Source: Bdellovibrionales bacterium (lineage in GTDB: Bacteria; Bdellovibrionota; Bdellovibrionia; Bdellovibrionales; JAGQZY01). From it: a stretch of 64,000 nucleotides of DNA. Positions 1-10,637 of the stretch are shown in pieces; the stretch's first letter is position 1, and the number at the start of each line of letters is the position of its first letter. The notes beneath the pieces were generated by a model. The model saw nothing but the letters and a program-made list of their open reading frames with translations, ran no database searches and was not told where the DNA came from. A program made the position numbers and the translations under genes. The stretch lies in the NCBI GenBank assembly GCA_964229765.1, contig CAXREJ010000053.1:1359-65358 (forward strand), read 5' to 3'.

Positions 1-3000
1 CTCGCCAAGATGTGATCTGATCGGTGCCAGCATGATAATGACGAAGCCTTGGATTTCCATCTTCAATGTAAGGATGGTGGTAGTTATCGACGTCACCACC
101 CATAAAGATAAAATCACCGTTAGGTAAAGCAAAGAAAGGGACGAAACCATGATACCCCTCCATATTATTAGTAAAATAGGCGAGTTGTGCCGTGAGTGCT
201 CCGTTGATGGTGTCGGCATTGGTTGCGCCACCACCGATGACCGTTTCAATCACTCCAGTGGTTAAATCAATACGTCGAATGCGATCGTAATCATAAATCC
301 ACATTCTTTGATTAGGAGTATTAAAATCTAAAGCAATTTTAACAATCTTTTGGGTCGTTGCGCTGGATACAGGTCCACCGTCTCCACTGGAAACTCCTGT
401 TTGTGGAAGAAAGACTTTTTGTAATCCGTCTGCTGGATCAATAACGAGAATGCCTCTGTCTTTATCTTTAAAAAAGAGGCGACCATCTCTTGCAACCACT
501 AAAGAATGGGGATCTGGCGAGTAAAAATGATCCAAACGGTAAGACATGAAAATGGCAGATTTTGCACTGAGGTTTAAGCCAGGGTCAGTATTACCTGCAA
601 TAAATCGGATGTTGCTTGCGACATTAAGACCCACGGATGAAAAACCGGAAGAAAGACCTATAGAATCTTCCACTACCACGCGAATGGCCATATAACCAGA
701 AGCGGGGACCGCTGACCAATAATAACAACCGGTCGCATTGTCATCAGCGGGAGTCGAAGCATGGTCAATCGTACAACTTCCATTTTGTCCATTGTTTAAG
801 CCAGAGGTGATGAGGGTGTAGTTTTCATCATCGGTTGTAAAATAAATTGAAACATTTCCTGCCGGAAAGGGATCGTCATCCGTGGCATTCCATTTGATAT
901 AAAGTGGTTGTCCAACACCCACAGTAAGGTCACTTTCAGAAGGAGGATTGGCTGGGTAGTCGTTGGATCCCACAATAACTTCATGGACAACTGGCGCAAA
1001 GACTTGTGTGTAAATGATGTCATCCGTATCTCTCCCAGCCGTACCTAAACCTCCACTGGTTAATGATGAAATATTAGAGGCTTGATCTTTTACCCAACCA
1101 TAAACGGAATAAGTTTCAGGGACAATGGGTAGGTTATAGGAGTGGTTATTGAGAGCCAATGTTGTAGATGGAGTGAGTCCCACAGCAGGTGAGTCTACGG
1201 CGACCCAACAAGCATCTCCATCAAGGGGATCTGTTTGATCATCTGTTTTTAAACAAAAGTGTGTGATATTTGTTAATGAATCTGTGGCCGTAAAATCAAT
1301 TTCCACTTGTGGTTTTATGGTATTGACATCATTATTATTGATCCTAAATGTAGTGGCTGTAAAGCTAGGGGCTTGGGTGTCTCTCTTCCACACTCCCACT
1401 TGATTGGTGGATAGCATGAGGGCATTGGTTTGTCTGAACTGATAAGATCTCAATCCGTCAGTGGTTTGAGTGTCTACAGTGTAGTTAAATGTACCAGCAG
1501 GACATCCTATGGTGTTTTCTAAAACTCCACTGAGTCTAATTTCAATATTGAGACCCGTTTCACAATTACCACTAAAACTAGCATCATTAGTAGAGTTGAT
1601 CACCTCCGCATCGGAAGTGATTAAAAGATTAGGAACTTGTGTGTTTCTCTCCCAGGTTGCCGAAACTTGGGTGCTATTTCCGGCTTGATCCGTCAGCGTG
1701 AAATCATAGTCTCTCGAAGCATCTGTTGTTTGTGTCGCTGTTGTATAGGACCAGTTTCCTGAGCTGCAAGTCGCAGTGCTGGTATCCGTATTTGATACTG
1801 CAATGGGTGAGGGAAGTCCCGCTTCGCAAGTACCAGTGAGAGTCACAGTATCTGAAGCTGTTGTTTGAGAAGCACTAGAAGTGAGAGTAAGGGATGGAGC
1901 CACAGTATCACGAATGTATCGTCCAGAAGTGGAAGAAGTATTTCCCGCAGCATCAGTTTGGGTGAAGCTGTAATTATAAGTAGAGTCACTGGATTTTGTT
2001 GGAGTGGCGTAAGACCAAGTGCCGGCAGTACAAGTTGTTGAGCTGTTATTAGCTCCTTCTACAATTTGAATGGGGAGTCCGGTTTCACAAGCTCCCCCAA
2101 AAGTGACCGTGTCGGTATTGGAGTAGTAGGGAAAACTTAAGTTTGTTTGTGTGATCACAGGGTTGGTGTTGTCACGAATAAAATCTCTATTACTTGATCC
2201 TGTGTTTCCAGCGGCATCGGTTTGAGAGACAACAATATTCTTTGTCCCTTCACCGGCTGAGAAAAAGACCTGTTGAGAGTAAGTTCCCGCAGGGCAGGTG
2301 ATAGAAAAGGGAGAAAGTAGACCTGTACCTGAAAAAGAAATATTAAGGCCTGTTTCGCAGGTCCCATCCATCGTGACACTGGATTGTGCTTGAGTGTTTA
2401 TCGCAGGATTATTGATCGTGGGAGCCGGTGGAGTGATGTCTTTAATAAAGGCTCGACTTTGAGTCGTGTTGTTACCGGCAGGATCAGTCTGACTAATCGT
2501 TATTGTTTTAGTTCCTTCACTAAGAGTAAAAACAATCGATTCACTAAATGTGGAGCCGATACAGCTAGTGGTAGCAGGGCTTGCAAGTCCAGAACCACTT
2601 AAGTTCACAGTGATACCATTTTCACAGGCCCCAGAGATAGTGGCTCCCGCTTGATGGTGGGAGTTTGCCGCAGGAGATGAAAAACTTAAAACAGGTGCAG
2701 TGTTGTCGCGAATAAAATCTCGATTGGCACTTCCTGAATTTCCAGCAGCATCGGTTTGAGAAATGACAATATTTTTAGTTCCTTCACCAGCTGTAAAAGT
2801 AATGGCTTGCGAAAATGTACTCGCGGTACAAGTGGTTGTCGCAGGGATTGTCAAATCTCCTGAAAGATTAATGGTGATTCCAGTTTCACAACTTCCAGCA
2901 ATGGTGACACCTGTTTGTGCTTCTGTGTTTGCCGCAGGAGAAGAAAAAGCCAAGGTAGGAGCTATAGTGTCTTTAATGAAGTCTCGATTGGCACTTCCTG

Positions 3001-5356
3001 AATTTCCAGCAGCATCCGTTTGTGTAATGACAATGTTTTTAGTACCTTCACCAGCTGTAAAAGTGATGGCTTGTGAAAAAGTGCCCGCCGTACAAGTGGT
3101 GGTAGTCGGTGCAGTCAAATCTCCAGAAAAATTAATGGTGATTCCGGTTTCACAACTTCCAGCAATAGTAACTCCCGTTTGTGCTTCTGTGTTTGCGGCA
3201 GGAGAAGAAAAAGCCAAAGTAGGAGCTATAGTGTCTTTAATGAAGTCTCGATTGGCACTTCCTGAATTTCCAGCAGCATCCGTTTGTGTAATGACAATGT
3301 TTTTAGTCCCTTCACCAGCTGTAAAAGTGATGGCTTGTGAAAAAGTGCCCGCGGTACAAGTGGTGGAAGCCGGCGTTGTCAAATCTCCTGAAAGATTAAT
3401 AGTGATTCCTGTTTCACAACTTCCAGCAATGGTGACTCCCGTTTGTGCTTCTGTATTTGCGGCAGGAGATGAGAAAGCAAGAACAGGAGCTATAGTGTCC
3501 TTGATAAAATCTCTGTTGCTGGATCCAGAGTTTCCAGCAGCATCTGTTTGAGAGACAACAATATTTTTAGTCCCTTCACCAGCCATGAAAGTAATGGCTT
3601 GTGAGAATGTTCCAGCGGTACAAGTGGTGGTAGTCGGTGCAGTCAAATCACCAGAGAGATTAATGGTGATTCCAGTTTCACAACTTCCAGCAATGGTAAC
3701 ACCTGTTTGTGCTTCTGTGTTTGCTGCAGGAAAAGAAAAAGCCAAGGTCGGTGCTATAGAGTCTTTTATGTAAGAGCGCATATTGCCACTGGTGTTACTG
3801 GCTAAATCAATTTGTTGCACGGAGACCCATTTAGCACCTTCGCCGGCCGTAAAAGTCACGGGATAAGAAAAAGTTCCACCCCCTGAACAGCTAATAGAGT
3901 TGGAGTTCGTAATATCTCCACCCACATTGATATTAAGTCCCACTTCACAATTACCACTGATGGTAATTCCATTGGGTGCAGCTGTTAAGGGAGCCGGAGA
4001 ACTGATCGCTAGCAAAGGAAAAGTGGTATCAAGAACAATGGATTGTTGTGCCCCAATAATGTTATCAATAGGATCTTTAATCCAAAGATAGACTGTTTTT
4101 AACCCATCTCCGGCACTGAGATTAAAAGAAGTGGGTCTAGCTCCAAGCCATCCGCTTCCGCTACAACTACTGGCAAGGGGCTGAGTGTTTTGTGTTTCAC
4201 TTAAACACCAGGCTGTGGCGGCTCCATCGTTCGTGATTGTAGTGCTAATGCTCTGAGTGCTTGCATAGCTGTTTTGGTTGGCAGGGATGGTGTTTGAAGA
4301 ATCAGTTAAAGTCAGAGTGGGAGCCGCAGAAGAGACACTAACAGCAGGGCTACAGGTTTGAGGTCTTAGATTTCCGGCTTCATCCTCAACAAAAACTCCA
4401 ATGGAATAAGTGTTGCCGTCGACAAGGCCTGTTGCAAGATAGTTTGTATTTGTTTGGTGAAGAGATAACTGTGCTGGAGAACTACAAGTTCCGTTATCAA
4501 AAAATGAAACTAAAAAAGTATCCGTACTCTTTAAACCAGAGTCTCCAATATCACTCGCTGACCATGTAAAGTTGAAGCTTGAAGAGGCTATGTTAATAGC
4601 TCCCACATGTGAAGTGAAAACAGGTACGCTTGGAGGAGTTCTATCCACTATGACATTCGTAATAGAGGCTGTTGCTAAGTTTCCTGCACGATCTTGAAAG
4701 CGAGCTGCAACATTAAAAGTTCCTTCGAGGACAGATAAGGTTTGATTGTAAGACCCATTGATGCAATTAATGCTTTGATCGAAATCGGATTCATTATTAC
4801 AGTTGTTTTTAATACAAACCTTGATGACTTCATCAAATTCTAGGTTATCAGAACAAGTTCCTGAGAGGGTTAATGTGTTCTTTTTGCTGGGAAGTGGATC
4901 TAAGATTTGTAAAGTAACCACAGGGTCAGATTGGTCAAAAGAAATGGACTCTGTACACACAAGGGGTCCTAAAGTTTTATCCGTTTTTTGCAGAGCCACA
5001 CCCACACTGTATGTCTTTCCGTCTTGCACTTTACCTTCTAAAGAATAAGTTGTTTCTTTTTGAAAGCGAGCATCAATAGGAGATCCTTTACAGTTTTCTT
5101 TTTCAAACAAGTAAACCACGTAAGATTCAAAGAAAGGGGTGCTTGTGGCATAAGGAGTTTCCGGCCAAGACACTTGAAAAGCTTCGTAGTTAATATAAGC
5201 TTTAGATCTTGGTTCCGAAAAGCTATCAATTTGAAAAGAGCTGAGACTGGAGTCAACAATATCAACTTCACTCGTACAACCAGCAAAGAAAGACAATGTC
5301 GCAGGCATCAAGATTAAGAGTTTAAAATATTTGTAGCTATTGCTGAAAATATTCAT
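1..5356 (-). CDS. Giant surface lipoprotein/adhesin, partial (C-terminus lies beyond the left edge): lipoprotein signal peptide, long array of bacterial Ig-like repeats, NHL-repeat-like beta-propeller region near the window edge
   Basis: Manual minus-strand translation from ATG at 5356. It gives MNIFSNSYKYFKLLILMPATLSFFAGCTSE (lipobox FAGC). I translated 5356 down to about 2940 and 301 down to 2 in one frame without a stop; the middle was not translated. The ORF track omits it, presumably because it is edge-truncated. All listed minus ORFs in this span are in another frame. Repeats carry the T-D-A-A-G-N strand motif typical of Big-type domains. The last 100 codons read IRRIDLTTGVIETVIGGG...FIFMGGDVDNYHHPYIEDGN, which is NHL-like. 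Confidence 0.85.
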   Translation of the reverse strand, partial: MNIFSNSYKYFKLLILMPATLSFFAGCTSEVDIVDSSLSSFQIDSFSEPRSKAYINYEAFQVSWPETPYATSTPFFESYVVYLFEKENCKGSPIDARFQKETTYSLEGKVQDGKTYSVGVALQKTDKTLGPLVCTESISFDQSDPVVTLQILDPLPSKKNTLTLSGTCSDNLEFDEVIKVCIKNNCNNESDFDQSINCINGSYNQTLSVLEGTFNVAARFQDRAGNLATASITNVIVDRTPPSVPVFTSHVGAINIASSSFNFTWSASDIGDSGLKSTDTFLVSFFDNGTCSSPAQLSLHQTNTNYLATGLVDGNTYSIGVFVEDEAGNLRPQTCSPAVSVSSAAPTLTLTDSSNTIPANQNSYASTQSISTTITNDGAATAWCLSETQNTQPLASSCSGSGWLGARPTSFNLSAGDGLKTVYLWIKDPIDNIIGAQQSIVLDTTFPLLAISSPAPLTAAPNGITISGNCEVGLNINVGGDITNSNSISCSGGGTFSYPVTFTAGEGAKWVSVQQIDLASNTSGNMRSYIKDSIAPTLAFSFPAANTEAQTGVTIAGSCETGITINLSGDLTAPTTTTCTAGTFSQAITFMAGEGTKNIVVSQTDAAGNSGSSNRDFIKDTIAPVLAFSSPAANTEAQTGVTIAGSCETGITINLSGDLTTPASTTCTAGTFSQAITFTAGEGTKNIVITQTDAAGNSGSANRDFIKDTIAPTLAFSSPAANTEAQTGVTIAGSCETGITINFSGDLTAPTTTTCTAGTFSQAITFTAGEGTKNIVITQTDAAGNSGSANRDFIKDTIAPTLAFSSPAANTEAQTGVTIAGSCETGITINLSGDLTIPATTTCTASTFSQAITFTAGEGTKNIVISQTDAAGNSGSANRDFIRDNTAPVLSFSSPAANSHHQAGATISGACENGITVNLSGSGLASPATTSCIGSTFSESIVFTLSEGTKTITISQTDPAGNNTTQSRAFIKDITPPAPTINNPAINTQAQSSVTMDGTCETGLNISFSGTGLLSPFSITCPAGTYSQQVFFSAGEGTKNIVVSQTDAAGNTGSSNRDFIRDNTNPVITQTNLSFPYYSNTDTVTFGGACETGLPIQIVEGANNSSTTCTAGTWSYATPTKSSDSTYNYSFTQTDAAGNTSSTSGRYIRDTVAPSLTLTSSASQTTASDTVTLTGTCEAGLPSPIAVSNTDTSTATCSSGNWSYTTATQTTDASRDYDFTLTDQAGNSTQVSATWERNTQVPNLLITSDAEVINSTNDASFSGNCETGLNIEIRLSGVLENTIGCPAGTFNYTVDTQTTDGLRSYQFRQTNALMLSTNQVGVWKRDTQAPSFTATTFRINNNDVNTIKPQVEIDFTATDSLTNITHFCLKTDDQTDPLDGDACWVAVDSPAVGLTPSTTLALNNHSYNLPIVPETYSVYGWVKDQASNISSLTSGGLGTAGRDTDDIIYTQVFAPVVHEVIVGSNDYPANPPSESDLTVGVGQPLYIKWNATDDDPFPAGNVSIYFTTDDENYTLITSGLNNGQNGSCTIDHASTPADDNATGCYYWSAVPASGYMAIRVVVEDSIGLSSGFSSVGLNVASNIRFIAGNTDPGLNLSAKSAIFMSYRLDHFYSPDPHSLVVARDGRLFFKDKDRGILVIDPADGLQKVFLPQTGVSSGDGGPVSSATTQKIVKIALDFNTPNQRMWIYDYDRIRRIDLTTGVIETVIGGGATNADTINGALTAQLAYFTNNMEGYHGFVPFFALPNGDFIFMGGDVDNYHHPYIEDGNPRLRHYHAGTDQITSWR
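2673..3729. repeat. Four near-identical in-frame tandem repeats of 264 bp (88 aa Ig-like unit) inside the adhesin gene; more diverged copies flank them (about 1400-2670 and 3730-4330)
   Basis: The landmark string ggag(a/t)(a/g)a recurs at 2673, 2937, 3201, 3465 and 3729, exactly 264 bp apart. The plus-strand antisense ORF 2763..3551 shows the same 88-aa periodicity. Confidence 0.9.
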
Positions 5357-5731: not shown

Positions 5732-6037
5732 TTAGTCTGGAACGACATGCTTTTTCTTTAAAATAGTTCTTTTTGTACTCATATCAAGATTTAAGCGATA
5801 AAAATGTTCTCTGGAAACTAGCAAATTAAAAAGAAAATCCTCTTTTTGAATTTTTAAAATTTCACCAATGGTCTTTAGCTTATCATTGGGAGGACCGCAC
5901 TTTCCTTGTTCCCAGTTGGAAACCATTTGAGAGGTGATTTTTAATTGTTGCGCCAATTCTTTTTGGGTCAATTTTTGTTTTTCCCTTTTTTTGAGAAGGA
6001 ATTTTCCTATCGATTCAAATTGTTTTTGTGGCTTCAT
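5732..6037 (-). CDS. XRE-family helix-turn-helix transcriptional regulator
   Basis: 101 aa. HTH segment LTQKELAQQLKITSQMVSNWEQGK. AGGAG sits 8 nt upstream of the ATG. Confidence 0.75.
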   Translation of the reverse strand: MKPQKQFESIGKFLLKKREKQKLTQKELAQQLKITSQMVSNWEQGKCGPPNDKLKTIGEILKIQKEDFLFNLLVSREHFYRLNLDMSTKRTILKKKHVVPD

Positions 6038-6304: not shown

Positions 6305-6340
6305 CAATATTTTTACTTTCAAACTCAAGTAAAAATATTG
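6305..6340. promoter_or_regulatory. Perfect 13-bp inverted repeat (caatatttttact / agtaaaaatattg, 10-nt spacer) in the XRE-histone divergent intergenic region; candidate operator or hairpin
   Basis: Read directly: arms 6305-6317 and 6328-6340. A second 7-bp inverted repeat is ctcaagt 6324-6330 / acttgag 6351-6357. Confidence 0.3.
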
Positions 6341-7009
6341 TAATCAAGCAACTTGAGGTAAATGTTTTATCAAGAGGGGGGTGTTTGAAAATTAAAGTTG
6401 TAGGCCGTTACAGTTGACACAGCCTTTTGTATAGTTGTTTTTTTGATTACTTATCGTGCTAAATTTAAATTGCATTTTTAATATCTTCTTTTTTTTATAT
6501 TTTTTTTCTACTTTTAAAAAGATATAGAAATATTGCACAGAGAAATGAGTAATTTTATTCTCTTTCAAATGACAAGCTGCAAGATAAACGACTAGTATCA
6601 CTGAGTTAATTCCTCGTCATAGTGTGTTTTTCACAACTGTTTTGAATCGTTTCTTTCTTTAGTTAAGGTGAATTGATTTTGCACTTACAAAGTTCGGATT
6701 CTTTTTTTTTCATACTTGGAGTAACAATTTTTTTGCTTTAGATGGTTATCGGAGTTTGATCCAATTCAACGGTGTACATTTTAAAGCGAAGACAAGCACA
6801 GACAAAATTGAAAAGAGTCAGAAGATCTCAAAAACCAAATAAGATATTAGTAGCATGAACACTGTACATATCTTCAGAATTGATTCTTTTACAATATTGA
6901 ATAATGAATCATTCGACTCTGCGTTAGTTTTTTTTACAGTTGATAAGATGAGAAAATTCTCACAGTATTGCCCCTCGTCTAACAATCATGTTCAAATAAA
7001 GGAGTAGAA

Positions 7010-7243
7010 ATGGCGAAGAAAAAGAAAAAAGCAACGAAGAAGAAAGCAGCAGCCAAAAAAAAGAGCGAAATGATTGTCGTTCAAAGTAAGTTTAAAGAAG
7101 CTTTGAAAGCTCATGATGTGAATGTTGCTGCTGATGCACTAGAAGGAGCAAACGCTGTTCTTCACTGGTATATTGATCAGGCGGCTCAGAGAGCTAAAAG
7201 TAATGGACGCAAAACCGTTCGTGCTCATGATTTCATCTCTTAA
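7010..7243 (+). CDS. Histone-fold DNA-binding protein (bacterial singlet histone, HBb/Bd0055-like) with lysine-rich N-terminal tail
   Basis: 77 aa. AAGGAG sits 6 nt upstream. Tail is MAKKKKKATKKKAAAKKKSE. Core is IVVQSKFKEALKAHDVNVAADALEGANAVLHWYIDQAAQRAKSNGRKTVRAHDFIS, with the AKxxGRKTVxxxD signature of HMf-type histones. An alternative internal start at 7070 (M21) would remove the tail. Confidence 0.7.
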   Translation: MAKKKKKATKKKAAAKKKSEMIVVQSKFKEALKAHDVNVAADALEGANAVLHWYIDQAAQRAKSNGRKTVRAHDFIS

Positions 7244-7277
7244 AGATTAAAAGTCTTATTAATTTCTATGTGAATGG

Positions 7278-7375
7278 CCTGAGGGTAACAAAAAATGAGT
7301 TCTTTATTCAAAAGAACGAGAAGTTAAAATCCATAAAAGAAAAAATGACGGAGCTTATCTTTTGTTACCTTCAGG
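7278..7375 (+). repeat. Long imperfect hairpin (16-nt arms, 15/16 paired) enclosing an inner 7-bp hairpin, 35 nt downstream of the histone gene; possible terminator or processing structure
   Basis: Arms are cctgagggtaacaaaa (7278-7293) and ttttgttaccttcagg (7360-7375). The inner hairpin is gttcttt-attca-aaagaac (7299-7317). Confidence 0.4.
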
Positions 7376-7906
7376 TTAATAACGATTAAGGCGTTTTACG
7401 TCCCTTCCTTCTGTTGATAAAGCCTTATATTATAGCTTACCACTCTCACTCTTTTAAAAAAGATCCTTCGGCAAGCCTCAGGTAAAAAAACGGATGACAG
7501 ATTAAGAGTTTTATCTATTGGCGATGATCTTCTTTTCTATCCAAAGTTTAAAAAATGAAACAAAGATGTGAATTTACTAAATTCTTCGGCAAGCCTAGGG
7601 ATGGCTATGACGATTTTCTATGATCATTAAGGACTTTCAGTGGAGTCGAAAGACCTCGTAGACGTGTCCACTTGGGCGAATCGAAGACTCGATCAATTCG
7701 TTATCGGAACAAACTAAAAAAGGTTTTTTTTGTTTAAAAGGCTCTGTTTTGACTAAAAAGAAGCATTTGGTGCTTGCAAAGTGTGACTAATCAACAACAG
7801 AGCGTTGAACATCCCTGTTTTCCACTATTTGACGCGAAAGGAAATTCTGGATTAAACCGCCAGGGAAGGGTAAAAATTTCCATCAAATTCTAACGAAGAG
7901 AGAACT

Positions 7907-9253
7907 ATGTCACAAACCCAAGAGAAAAGCCTTTTTGGACATCCAATAGGACTTTACGTCCTCTTTTTTACAGAAATGTGGGAGCGATTTTCCTATTATG
8001 GAATGAGAGCTCTTTTAATTCTCTATATGACAAAAGAGTTAATTATCAATGCTCGTAACGGTGAGTACATTATGGGGTTTGAATATATAGAGGCTATGTA
8101 CAGTGGCCTTGGAGTTCAACCCTTAGCTTCCCAGATTTACGGACTCTATACTTTCTTGGTCTATTGTACGCCTTTACTGGGTGGACTCTTGGCGGATCGT
8201 TTTATCGGTGAAAAGTACTCCATCATTTTAGGGGGAGTTCTGATGACAATTGGTCACTTCCTAATGGCTTTTGAGTCTCTTTTCTTACTCGCATTGGTCT
8301 TTCTTATTTTTGGTAACGGAGCTTTTAAACCTAATATTTCAACCCAGGTGGGTGGTCTTTATCCAGAAGGTGATCCTCGTCGAGATGGTGCTTTTACTAT
8401 TTTTTATATGGGAATTAATCTTGGAGCCATATTCTCGCCCATTGTCTGCGGAACATTAGGTGAAATCTATGGTTGGCACTATGGTTTCACCGCTGCTGGT
8501 GTAGGCATGGTATTAGGGTTGATCGTCTATCTCTTTGGGCAAAAATACTTACCTAAAACCGCTTTTGAGAAAAATAAAGAAGCCAAAGTTAAGACAGCCG
8601 CTAAACCTTTGAGTAAAGGCCAATGGAATGCCATCTTAGGATTTTTTGTGCTCTCCTTAGCAAATATCGTTTTTTGGGGTGTTTTTGAACAGCAGGGAAA
8701 CACTTTACAGTTATTATCAACGGATCATACGGATTGGACAATTGGAAGTTGGACGGTTCCTTCCACATGGCTACAGTCACTGAATCCCCTTTTTATATTC
8801 ATTTTCGCACCTTTGTTAATGAGGCTGTGGGAAAAGCAAGGTGATAAGCAGTTATCAAGCATTGCTAAAATGTCTGTAGGCTGCATGCTAATGGGCTCAG
8901 GCTTTGTCTTTCTGATCTATATTACACAAGGATTTACTCCTCAAACCATGATTAGTTTCCTGTGGTTTGTTCCAATGATGTTTGTGGTAACAGTCGGTGA
9001 ATTGTTCTTTTCTCCTATAGGACTTTCTCTTGTCACAAAAATTGCGCCGCCAAGACTTGTGGGAATGATGATGGGGTGGTGGTTTTTTACGACAGGTCTT
9101 GGTAACTATTTCGGTGGTTATTTGGGCACATTCTACGCCACGATGACTAAATCAGAGTTTTTCACACTGTGCTTAGTTTTAGGTATAGCCGTTGGAATTG
9201 GAATTTTTATTTTACAAAAACCTTTGAAAAAAGCAGTAGGACACGGAGTTTAA
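7907..9253 (+). CDS. POT/PTR2-family proton-dependent di/tripeptide permease
   Basis: 448 aa polytopic protein. Motifs ERFSYYGMRALLILYM and GGLLADRFIGEKYSIILGG (PTR2 signature). Confidence 0.9.
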   Translation: MSQTQEKSLFGHPIGLYVLFFTEMWERFSYYGMRALLILYMTKELIINARNGEYIMGFEYIEAMYSGLGVQPLASQIYGLYTFLVYCTPLLGGLLADRFIGEKYSIILGGVLMTIGHFLMAFESLFLLALVFLIFGNGAFKPNISTQVGGLYPEGDPRRDGAFTIFYMGINLGAIFSPIVCGTLGEIYGWHYGFTAAGVGMVLGLIVYLFGQKYLPKTAFEKNKEAKVKTAAKPLSKGQWNAILGFFVLSLANIVFWGVFEQQGNTLQLLSTDHTDWTIGSWTVPSTWLQSLNPLFIFIFAPLLMRLWEKQGDKQLSSIAKMSVGCMLMGSGFVFLIYITQGFTPQTMISFLWFVPMMFVVTVGELFFSPIGLSLVTKIAPPRLVGMMMGWWFFTTGLGNYFGGYLGTFYATMTKSEFFTLCLVLGIAVGIGIFILQKPLKKAVGHGV

Positions 9254-9254
9254 T

Positions 9255-10637
9255 ATGGGAGAAAATACAGGAAAATTTCCACCTCAAATTAAATACCTTA
9301 TTGGGAATGAAGGTTGTGAGCGCTTTAGCTTTTATGGAATGCGAACGATTCTCACTGTTTTTATGGTGGAGTACCTTGCTTTAAAAGCCGGTTTTGCAAC
9401 CGAAGTTTATCATATGTTCGTAGCCGGTTGTTATCTTACTCCACTAGCTGGAGCTTACCTCGCCGATCGCTATTTTGGCCGCTTTAAAGTGATCCTCTGG
9501 CTCTCAATCGTTTACTGCCTTGGTCATGGGGTGATTGCTCTTTACGAAAATGAAATGGGACTTTATTGGGGCTTGGCTTTGATTGCTATAGGCTCAGGGG
9601 GAATTAAACCTTGTGTTTCAGCCTTTGGAGGGGACCAGTTTCATCCAGACAATAAATTGGGAATCTCTCGGTTCTACAATATGTTTTACTGGATTATCAA
9701 TTTTGGTTCTGCCACCTCTTCTGTGTTAACACCGTTTTTGTTGGCAAAACTCGGGCCGGCCATTGCCTTCGGTATACCTGGAGTGCTTATGCTGATAGCG
9801 ACCATCGTTTTTTGGATGGGGCGTAAGCAGTATGAAATAAAACCGCCTTCTGGGAAGAATCCTGACTCTGTGCCACGTGTTTTAATTTCTGCACTTAAGA
9901 ATCGCGTTCCCAATCAAAAATTTCTCGATGGGGCATTGAAAAATCACTCCCAAGAAGTGGTCGATGGAGTTCGCGCGGTTCTTTCCATTATGGTTCTATT
10001 CTTGGTCGCCGTTCCTGTTTTTTGGGCTCTGTTTGATCAACATGGTTCCACATGGGTATTGCAAGCTCTGCAAATGGATCCAATGGTTTTTGGGTTTAAA
10101 TTAGAACCCTCGGCTATGCAGGCGCTGAATCCATTTATGGTTATGGCCTTAATTCCGATTTTTGTTTTTGGAGTCTATCCCACTGTGCAGAAGTTTTTTA
10201 ACTTCACACCTTTGCGACGTATGACTGTTGGTATGGTCGTTGCCGGTTTTGCCTTTGCTCAAGTGGGTTTTATTCAATACTTTTTAGATGAGCAAATAGC
10301 CTCGGGTGTTCTTTTGGAAGATCGTATTAATATCTTCTGGCAATTCTTTCCCTATTTAACAATTACAATTGCGGAAGTTTTGATTTCTATTACTGGACTT
10401 GAGTTTGCCTATACCCAAGCGCCAAAGAGTATGAAATCCACAATCATGAGTTTTTGGATGCTAACAACTTTCCTAGGAAACGTTTATGTGGCAGTGGCCT
10501 CAAAATTTATGGGAAGTGGTCATCAAGATAGTGTGAATGGAAACTTCTTTATGTTTTTTGCTTTACTCATGCTAGGGGCCAGTGGTGTTTTTGCACTATT
10601 AGCTCGAAACTATAAGATGAGAGAAAAATACGAATAG
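9255..10637 (+). CDS. POT/PTR2-family peptide permease (second tandem paralogue)
   Basis: 460 aa. Motifs ERFSFYGMRTILTVFM and GAYLADRYFGRFKVILW. It starts 1 nt after the upstream stop. Confidence 0.9.
   Translation: MGENTGKFPPQIKYLIGNEGCERFSFYGMRTILTVFMVEYLALKAGFATEVYHMFVAGCYLTPLAGAYLADRYFGRFKVILWLSIVYCLGHGVIALYENEMGLYWGLALIAIGSGGIKPCVSAFGGDQFHPDNKLGISRFYNMFYWIINFGSATSSVLTPFLLAKLGPAIAFGIPGVLMLIATIVFWMGRKQYEIKPPSGKNPDSVPRVLISALKNRVPNQKFLDGALKNHSQEVVDGVRAVLSIMVLFLVAVPVFWALFDQHGSTWVLQALQMDPMVFGFKLEPSAMQALNPFMVMALIPIFVFGVYPTVQKFFNFTPLRRMTVGMVVAGFAFAQVGFIQYFLDEQIASGVLLEDRINIFWQFFPYLTITIAEVLISITGLEFAYTQAPKSMKSTIMSFWMLTTFLGNVYVAVASKFMGSGHQDSVNGNFFMFFALLMLGASGVFALLARNYKMREKYE

What the first reader, a model, noticed from the sequence alone, without database searches (positions are those of the whole stretch)
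7010..7243. Bacterial histone-fold protein carrying a poly-lysine N-terminal tail
Residues 21-77 look like a singlet histone fold. There are three predicted helices and the QRAKSNGRKTVRAHDF signature, which matches the AxxAGRKT(I/V)xxxD loop-2/alpha-3 region of archaeal HMf histones and the Bdellovibrio histone HBb (Bd0055). In front of it is MAKKKKKATKKKAAAKKKSE, with 11 Lys in 20 residues, resembling H1/HU-type AKKA tails. The ATG at 7010 has the strong RBS (AAGGAG, 6-nt spacing). A tail fused to a bacterial histone fold is, as far as I know, not a described architecture, and it could change DNA-binding mode or affinity. The gene is monocistronic and isolated by about 970 bp and 660 bp of non-coding DNA, consistent with a highly expressed nucleoid protein.
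Basis: partly seen in the sequence, partly recalled or inferred. Interest (0 to 1): 0.7.

Follow-up and report, generated by a model that had tools for sequence, protein, structure and literature searches.

The report
Lysine-tailed bacterial face-to-face histone gene
This small gene encodes a genuine bacterial histone with a lysine-rich N-terminal tail, but it belongs to the "face-to-face" histone class, in which such tails were reported in 2024, so it is a new example of a known kind and not a new architecture.

Summary
Window 7010-7243(+) is a real 77-aa gene with a strong Shine-Dalgarno sequence, a 20-residue tail containing 11 Lys, and a 57-residue histone fold. It is not most similar to Bdellovibrio HBb. 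Sequence, family profile and predicted structure all place it closest to HLp of Leptospira perolatii (PDB 9QT0), a bacterial face-to-face (FtF) alpha3-truncated histone that forms tetramers and wraps about 60 bp of DNA. The FtF signature residues (R61, N65, R67, T69, D74) and the main HLp DNA-contact residues (S26, K27, K29, K33, R71) are all present. The tail is translated and under selection. All 120 closest homologues carry a basic tail of 6-40 aa, 100 of them start MAKK, the internal Met21 is not conserved, and Lys-rich tails persist in loci with 67-74% GC. The novelty claim fails. Schwab et al. 2024 reported positively charged N-terminal tails on most bacterial FtF histones and showed examples from Halobacteriovorax and Haliangium. 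What the tails do has not been tested experimentally, because the HLp that was characterised is a short-tailed form. Verdict: new member of a known kind, with modest interest.

The parts
6920..6968 (+). Putative promoter: conserved TGCGTTAG box (6920-6927), -35-like TTGATA (6940-6945), 17-nt spacer, -10-like CAGTAT (6963-6968)
   Evidence: These blocks are conserved with the same spacing upstream of the orthologues in L005 and L006 (alignment A3). The consensus scanner did not call this site because the -10 is weak. Inferred, not shown.
6999..7004 (+). Shine-Dalgarno sequence AAGGAG, 5 nt before the ATG
   Evidence: Read from the sequence. The same AAGGAG lies 5-6 nt before the tail ATG in relatives L005, L006 and L010.
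7010..7069 (+). Codons 1-20: disordered Lys-rich N-terminal tail MAKKKKKATKKKAAAKKKSE (net charge about +9.5)
   Evidence: AF2 pLDDT is 57-61 with no secondary structure. A basic tail of 6-40 aa is present in 120 of 120 close homologues, and 100 of 120 start MAKK. Tails persist in GC-rich loci using AAG codons.
7070..7240 (+). Codons 21-77: alpha3-truncated histone fold of the FtF type (alpha1 25-33, alpha2 41-64, alpha3 72-76). Tetramer and RD-clamp residues are R61, S64, N65, R67, T69, D74 and F75. DNA-contact residues are S26, K27, K29, K33, K68, T69 and R71.
   Evidence: PDB phmmer and profile search match HLp 9qt0 at E = 4.9e-7 and 6.7e-15. Foldseek matches HLp with TM 0.95-0.96 and rmsd 0.7-0.8 A. 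Residue mapping uses Hu et al. 2025. Invariant columns are listed.
7241..7243 (+). Stop codon TAA
7275..7378 (+). Long imperfect hairpin of about 100 nt in the 3' flank. It may act as a terminator or transcript-stabilising structure, but has no T-tract.
   Evidence: RNA fold gives -43.2 kcal/mol, z = -4.3, with 0 of 200 shuffles as stable. The element is unique in the window. Relatives L005, L006 and L010 have a canonical intrinsic terminator at the equivalent position.

Best explanation
The gene encodes a nucleoid-associated histone of the bacterial face-to-face (FtF) alpha3-truncated class, orthologous in kind to HLp of Leptospira. Translation starts at ATG 7010 and gives an 8.5-kDa protein with pI 10.3. 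Residues 21-77 form a histone fold with a very short alpha3 helix and dimerise by the usual handshake. Two dimers then probably join through both ends, using R61/S64/N65 against R67/H73/F75 of the opposite dimer, to form a closed ring-shaped tetramer. About 60 bp of DNA wraps around its rim without sequence specificity, contacting S26, K27, K29 and K33 on alpha1 and K68, T69 and R71 in loop 2. The four 20-residue Lys tails leave the core at the N-termini of alpha1, next to the 'paired ends of helices' DNA-contact sites. They supply about +38 of the roughly +47 net charges of the tetramer. They most likely raise DNA affinity, neutralise the phosphates of wrapped or flanking DNA, and promote compaction or bridging. 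Shown here: the fold, class-signature residues, translated and conserved tail, and compact own promoter/terminator context. Inferred from HLp/HTkC: tetramer formation and about 60-bp wrapping. Inferred from charge and geometry only: the role of the tail.
For: Sequence: PDB phmmer gives HLp 4.9e-7, HBb about 7e-4 and HTkC 0.013. The family profile gives HLp 6.7e-15, HBb 1.5e-8 and HTkC 2e-7. Structure: the AF2 model has pLDDT above 90 over the fold. The Foldseek top hits are HLp (TM 0.95-0.96, rmsd 0.7-0.8 A), then HBb and HTkC, and every high-ranking match is a histone. Class signature: R61, N65, R67 and D74 are invariant in 120 of 120 homologues. They match HLp R49, N53, R55 and D62 and Schwab's HMM positions R48, N52, R54, T56 and D61. 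The HTkC R45A mutation, at the position equivalent to R61, converts that tetramer to HBb-like behaviour. DNA contacts: the five residues that give 52% of HLp binding energy (S14, K15, K17, K21, R59) correspond to S26, K27, K29, K33 and R71. Tail: the SD is in place and is conserved in relatives. Tails occur in 120 of 120 close homologues and in 39 of 112 diverse FtF singlets found with a tail-free query. Met21 is not conserved: M 69, V 28, T 8 and others. Lys is retained with AAG codons in loci of 67-74% GC. The tail carries +9.5 of the +11.8 net charge. Taxonomy and synteny: the closest relatives are Pseudobdellovibrionaceae and Bdellovibrionales MAGs, and L005 shares the two downstream POT-family transporter genes.
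Against: Oligomeric state and DNA wrapping were not tested, because no multimer prediction was available. HLp T61 is H73 here, and HLp K54, a persistent DNA contact, is G66. Two extra C-terminal residues follow F75, and in FtF histones the C-terminal carboxylate takes part in the interface. Pfam and NCBIfam give no significant hit. There are no expression data for this organism. The tails vary in length and are of low complexity, so a precise structural role is unlikely.
Confidence: 0.8

Rival explanations
1. It is an HBb/Bd0055-type 'bacterial dimer' histone. It would act as a dimer that bends DNA or coats straight DNA end-on, with no tetramer and no wrapping.
For: The lineage is Bdellovibrionota. 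HBb is a significant sequence and structure match (E about 7e-4, TM 0.85-0.88). It shares the RKTV...D motif and the short alpha3 helix. The tetramer was not tested directly.
Against: HBb-type histones are defined by lacking the R48/N52 dimer-dimer residues. This protein and all 120 homologues have them. The profile match to HLp is about 20 bits better than to HBb. The structural match to HLp is also tighter.
Confidence: 0.1
2. The tail is a selectively neutral by-product: the reading frame extended into A-rich upstream DNA ('easy come, easy go'). It would have no specific function beyond a slight unspecific gain in charge.
For: Tail length is highly variable (6-40 aa, up to 74) and the sequence is of low complexity. 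About a third of diverse FtF singlets and the archaeal relatives have no tail. This origin is proposed in the literature (PMC10919886).
Against: The tail is retained in 120 of 120 close homologues across several phyla, and 100 of 120 start MAKK. Lys-rich tails are kept in loci of 67-74% GC with AAG codons, and Lys is kept where bias would favour Arg. The tail carries about 80% of the protein's net positive charge.
Confidence: 0.12
3. Translation starts at the internal ATG 7070 (Met21), giving a tail-less 57-aa histone. The Lys-rich codons would then be an A-rich 5' leader.
For: An in-frame ATG exists at 7070, preceded by a weak purine-rich AAAGAG. For HLp, Hu et al. chose the shorter of two annotated forms on Shine-Dalgarno grounds.
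Against: A canonical AAGGAG lies 5 nt before ATG 7010, and no canonical SD precedes 7070. Position 21 is Met in only 69 of 120 homologues. The extension stays in frame, free of stops and Lys-rich in every bacterial locus examined, including GC-rich ones.
Confidence: 0.04

Closest known systems
HLp, the FtF histone of Leptospira perolatii (PDB 9QT0/9QT1/9QT2; Hu et al., Nat Commun 2025, PMC12701072)
   Same: Best sequence, profile and structure match. Same alpha3-truncated fold. Tetramer-interface residues R49, S52, N53, R55 and F63 and the RD clamp correspond to R61, S64, N65, R67, F75 and D74. The main DNA-contact residues are conserved.
   Different: Only about 38% identical. The characterised HLp form is 63 aa with roughly 7-10 disordered, non-poly-Lys N-terminal residues, whereas this protein has a 20-aa tail with 11 Lys. 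T61 is H73 and K54 is G66. There are two extra C-terminal residues. The genomic context differs: there is no SMC/MAP neighbourhood.
Tailed bacterial FtF histones described by Schwab et al. 2024 (PMC11390915), e.g. Halobacteriovorax marinus E1WYC3 and Haliangium ochraceum D0LYZ1
   Same: Same class and same architecture: a positively charged, disordered N-terminal tail followed by an FtF fold. One of their examples comes from the same phylum. The length of 77 aa lies within their bacterial FtF range of 51-127 aa.
   Different: [quoted passage not shown]
HBb / Bd0055 of Bdellovibrio bacteriovorus (PDB 8CMP, 8FVX, 9EZZ), a 'bacterial dimer' histone
   Same: Alpha3-truncated histone fold, RKTV...D motif, alpha1 lysines and the Bdellovibrionota lineage.
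   Different: HBb lacks the R/N dimer-dimer residues (it has S and D at those positions), is a dimer, and has only a 4-residue N-terminal stub. It matches more weakly.
HTkC of Thermococcus kodakarensis (PDB 9F2C), an archaeal FtF histone
   Same: Torus-forming tetramer class. The key arginine is conserved (HTkC R45 corresponds to R61).
   Different: It is archaeal and tail-less (about 55-59 aa) and has lower similarity (E = 2e-7 with the profile).
Lys/Ala-rich tails of other nucleoid proteins (chlamydial Hc1/Hc2, mycobacterial HupB C-terminus, eukaryotic H1 and Asgard histone tails)
   Same: Disordered AKK-rich composition. A relative's 74-aa tail (P0264) passes the Pfam HC2 threshold.
   Different: The resemblance is compositional only. 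This protein's own 20-aa tail gives no HC2 hit, and the tail is attached to a different fold.

Membership tests
alpha3-truncated histones (Schwab 2024) | Histone fold (helix-loop-helix-loop-helix) with alpha3 shortened to a single turn and a shortened alpha2 | tested here: met
   The AF2 helices are 25-33, 41-64 and 72-76. The model superposes on HLp at 0.7-0.8 A over 56-57 residues, and on HBb and HTkC.
Face-to-face (FtF) histones | Conserved dimer-dimer residues R48 and N52 of the FtF HMM (HLp R49/N53, D4GZE0 R41/N45) | tested here: met
   R61 and N65 have the right spacing to R67-x-T69-x4-D74. They are invariant in 120 of 120 homologues.
Face-to-face (FtF) histones | RxTxxxxD motif / RD clamp that structures loop 2 | tested here: met
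   R67, T69 and D74 are invariant columns in alignment A1.
Face-to-face (FtF) histones | Closed torus-shaped homotetramer (the feature that defines the class) | not testable with these tools
   Only monomer prediction was available. The tetramer is inferred from conserved interface residues and closest similarity to HLp.
Face-to-face (FtF) histones | Wraps about 50-60 bp of DNA non-specifically | not testable with these tools
   This needs MNase, TPM or EMSA. Only the conservation of HLp's DNA-contact residues (S26, K27, K29, K33, R71) was shown.
Bacterial FtF histones with basic N-terminal tail | Disordered, positively charged N-terminal extension in front of the fold | tested here: met
   The tail has 11 K in 20 residues, net charge +9.5 and pLDDT 57-61. 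The SD-supported start is conserved in relatives.
Bacterial dimer histones (HBb type) | Absence of the FtF R48/N52 residues, no oligomer larger than a dimer, and clustering by sequence with Bd0055 | tested here: not met
   R61 and N65 are present. The profile scores HLp 58 bits against HBb 38 bits.
Archaeal/eukaryotic nucleosomal histones (Pfam PF00808 / PF00125) | Profile match and a full-length alpha3 helix of about 10 residues | tested here: not met
   Pfam gives no hit at E up to 10. NCBIfam archaea_histone scores 13.5 bits against a cut-off of 50. Alpha3 is 5 residues long.
DUF1931 pseudodimeric (doublet) histones | Two histone folds in one chain and a PF09123 match | tested here: not met
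   The protein has a single fold and no PF09123 hit. The 'DUF1931' label on 9qt0 and on P0082 is the depositors' annotation.

The most novel reading that the evidence does not exclude
The lysine-specific tail, with its MAKKK start, is kept as Lys even in loci of 67-74% GC. It may be a regulated functional module and not just added charge. It could switch FtF tetramers from isolated 60-bp wrapping units to bridged or condensed chromatin, or serve as a substrate for reversible lysine acetylation. That would be a bacterial counterpart of tail-regulated eukaryotic chromatin.
Probability: 0.15. Interest if true: 0.65.

Novelty: new member of a known kind. Interest (0 to 1): 0.3.

Why it matters
Bacterial histones were recognised only in 2023-2025, and only two have been characterised biochemically: HBb, and HLp in a short-tailed form. 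This locus adds a clean, well-supported example of the tailed FtF subclass from a Bdellovibrionales-like MAG. The survey made here sharpens a testable question that the literature raises but has not answered: what do the basic tails do? The relevant findings are the universal MAKKK-type tails in the clade, lysine kept against GC bias, and the tail supplying about 80% of the net charge. The locus does not reveal a new architecture.

Tried and rejected
Rfam found nothing at gathering thresholds in the whole window. In the flanks it found only chance-level hits: plant miRNA models on the hairpin and an algC-like hit at E = 0.1. I looked for a structured RNA or tandem repeat in the downstream gap. 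TRF found none, the fold of 7420-7740 is not significant (z = +0.56), and the 16-nt direct repeat at 7463/7581 has only two copies. The 100-nt tandem repeat unit of L005 is also not significantly structured. No second histone-fold ORF exists in the 64-kb window. I considered a Hc2/H1-type protein and rejected it, because only the composition is similar. I considered an internal start at Met21 and rejected it on SD and conservation grounds.

Full report
**Observation.** Window 7010-7243(+) is an ATG-initiated ORF of 77 codons. It encodes MAKKKKKATKKKAAAKKKSE followed by MIVVQSKFKEALKAHDVNVAADALEGANAVLHWYIDQAAQRAKSNGRKTVRAHDFIS.
- The first 20 residues contain 11 Lys.
- AAGGAG lies at 6999-7004, 5 nt before the ATG.
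- The neighbouring genes are an XRE-type HTH gene on the minus strand (5732-6037) and two POT/PTR2 peptide-transporter genes (7907-9253 and 9255-10637).
- This leaves gaps of 972 and 663 bp. Neither the ORF list nor the public gene calls for the identical contig (GCA_041252175.1, JBESVP010000029.1) support a gene in them.
- The gene is real: a database search found 526 homologues, with the identical protein at E = 5e-39.

**Is it a histone fold?** Yes, although the curated profile libraries miss it.
- Pfam gives nothing relevant. NCBIfam's archaea_histone model scores far below its cut-off.
- Against PDB sequences, the single protein matches HLp of Leptospira perolatii (9qt0, E = 4.9e-7), HBb/Bd0055 (8cmp/8fvx, about 7e-4), HTkC (9f2c, 0.013) and HmvA.
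- A profile of 56 family members gives HLp 6.7e-15, HBb 1.5e-8 and HTkC 2e-7.
- The AlphaFold2 model built on that alignment has pLDDT above 90 over residues 21-77. Its helices are at 25-33, 41-64 and 72-76, and the tail is unstructured with low confidence (pLDDT 57-61).
- Foldseek against the PDB returns HLp first (TM 0.95-0.96, rmsd 0.7-0.8 A over 56-57 residues), then HBb (0.85-0.88) and HTkC (0.88), then viral, Asgard and eukaryotic histones.

**Which kind of histone?** The literature splits alpha3-truncated prokaryotic histones into two relevant classes. [quoted passage not shown] 'Bacterial dimer' histones of the HBb type lack the conserved dimer-dimer residues R48 and N52 of the FtF profile (PMC11390915).
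- In the HLp crystal structure the tetramer interface uses R49, S52, N53 and R55 against T61 and F63, with an R55-D62 clamp (PMC12701072).
- HLp numbering maps onto this protein as x+12 (alignment). This gives R61, S64, N65, R67, H73, F75 and D74, so everything except T61 is conserved.
- R61, N65, R67 and D74 are invariant in all 120 retrieved homologues. HBb has Ser and Asp at the R and N positions.
- In archaeal HTkC, mutating the equivalent arginine (R45A) gives HBb-like dimer behaviour (preprint 10.64898/2025.12.06.692711).
- The five residues that provide 52% of HLp's DNA-binding energy (S14, K15, K17, K21, R59) correspond to S26, K27, K29, K33 and R71, and all are present.

The protein is therefore an FtF-type histone and not an HBb-type one. 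Tetramer formation and wrapping of about 60 bp are inferred from HLp and were not tested here.

**Is the tail real?** Yes.
- All 120 closest homologues carry an N-terminal extension of 6-40 aa (median 20), composed of about 46% K+R and 7% D+E. Of these, 100 start MAKK and 115 start MA.
- The residue at position 21 is Met in only 69 of 120, so an internal start is not conserved.
- I made an independent DNA-level check on loci found through the fold. In every bacterial locus the frame stays open upstream and begins with ATG preceded by an SD. In L005, L006 and L010 the SD is AAGGAG at 5-6 nt. Most of the archaeal loci (four of five) start directly at the fold.
- A search with the tail-free fold against 1.84 billion 50%-identity representatives found 149 relatives. 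Among them were 112 singlets with the R-x3-N-x-R signature: 39 have clearly basic tails of 8 aa or more (up to 74 aa of AKKAP-type repeats), 35 have no tail, and the rest have short or non-basic extensions, some of which look like mis-called starts. A further 25 relatives are doublets.
- Lys-rich tails persist in loci with 67% and 74% GC, encoded almost entirely by AAG and keeping Lys where bias would favour Arg. This argues for selection and against A-rich drift.
- The tail carries +9.5 of the protein's +11.8 net charge. The fold alone is about +1.8.

**Context.**
- The closest genomic relatives are MAGs labelled Pseudobdellovibrionaceae (76% identity), Bdellovibrionales and Oligoflexia. More distant relatives come from Planctomycetia, Myxococcales, Acidobacteria, Leptospiraceae and Elusimicrobia, and from DPANN and Hadesarchaea archaea.
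- L005 shares the two downstream POT transporter genes (67% protein identity for the first one compared), so the locus is syntenic.
- A compact conserved upstream element is shared with L005 and L006: TGCGTTAG, then TTGATA, 17 nt, then nAGTAT, ending about 40 nt before the ATG.
- L005, L006 and L010 each have a canonical intrinsic terminator 20-30 nt after the stop codon. This window instead has a long hairpin of about 100 nt at 7275-7378 (z = -4.3, unique in the window).
- A monocistronic unit is therefore likely. The 972-bp upstream gap is not conserved (about 160 bp in L005) and is not evidence of high expression.
- No second histone-fold ORF lies in the window.

**Mechanism (best explanation).** A tailed FtF histone forms a handshake dimer, then a closed tetramer through R61/N65 against R67/F75. 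About 60 bp of DNA wraps around the basic rim. Four Lys tails emerge at the alpha1 N-termini, beside the 'paired ends of helices' contact sites. They add about +38 charges to a nearly neutral core and so strengthen binding, neutralise phosphates and probably favour compaction or bridging. The first steps follow from homology to structures solved and assayed by others. The tail's role is inference only.

**Comparison with what is known, and novelty.**
- Schwab et al. [quoted passage not shown]
- Their source data list bacterial FtF lengths from 51 to 127 aa, against an archaeal mode of 55.
- Their Supplementary Figs 19-20 show the tails of Halobacteriovorax marinus E1WYC3, which belongs to Bdellovibrionota, and of Haliangium D0LYZ1, together with a tetramer model.
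- A 2024 review also discusses Lys-rich tails on bacterial histones.
- Some homologues are already annotated 'histone H3/H4' by JGI or 'DUF1931' by NCBI.
- What has not been done, in the library I could search, is any functional test of these tails. The HLp that was studied is the 63-aa form, whose first 6-7 residues are disordered.

**Verdict.** This is a new member of a known kind.

Noticed in passing
Relatives P0121-P0134 and others: 25 of 149 representative relatives of the fold are doublets of about 118-132 aa with two FtF-like halves, most carrying R-x3-N-x-R-K-T in both. They are the top-scoring hits (E down to 2.5e-26). They match Pfam CBFD_NFYB_HMF and DUF1931 only weakly, so they may be FtF-derived pseudodimers distinct from the Aq_328-type DUF1931 group.
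   Followed up: partly
Relatives P0138, P0140, P0148, P0160, P0218: Some FtF singlets have no N-terminal tail but carry long acidic, Ala/Glu/Pro-rich C-terminal tails. P0218 has an N-terminal extension that is basic and then strongly acidic. These are opposite-charge variants of the tail theme.
   Followed up: no
Relative P0264 (129 aa) and L022 4833-5003: Some tails are very long (57-74 aa) and made of AKKAP/AAKK repeats. The P0264 tail passes Pfam's threshold for the chlamydial H1-like HC2 family (46.1 bits against a cut-off of 40).
   Followed up: partly
window 7275-7378 (+): A long imperfect hairpin of about 100 nt lies 32 nt after the histone stop codon (-43 kcal/mol, z = -4.3). It is unique in the window and has no T-tract. 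Relatives have an ordinary intrinsic terminator at this position. It overlaps a 39-codon GTG ORF (7270-7389) that has no support.
   Followed up: partly
L005 5276-5566: In the closest relative, the gap between the histone and the POT transporter genes holds a 100-nt tandem repeat (2.9 copies, 90% matches). Each unit ends in a terminator-like hairpin, CCAGCCGGCTGnnGG followed by T6. The fold energy of one unit is not significant. Its function is unknown.
   Followed up: partly
window 7463-7478 and 7581-7596: A two-copy 16-nt direct repeat, ATYCTTCGGCAAGCCT, lies 118 nt apart in the downstream gap. No tandem array or significant structure was detected around it.
   Followed up: partly
window 6305-6340: A perfect 14-nt inverted repeat, CAATATTTTTACTT-N8-AAGTAAAAATATTG, lies in the AT-rich (29% GC) upstream gap. 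Rfam gives only a weak algC-like hit on the minus strand (E = 0.1). It could be an operator or terminator for the divergent HTH gene.
   Followed up: no
window 7820-7906 versus L005 5660-5743: Conserved blocks lie just upstream of the first POT transporter gene (TTTGACGCG ... CTGGATT ... GAAGGGTA.AAA.TTCC ... AAGAGAGAA). They are probably its promoter and 5'UTR.
   Followed up: no
window 1-5356 (-): A very large gene of 2320 aa in the public gene call runs off the left end of the window. It has only faint Big_13 and Glucodextran_B hits and is probably a giant surface or adhesin-like protein.
   Followed up: no
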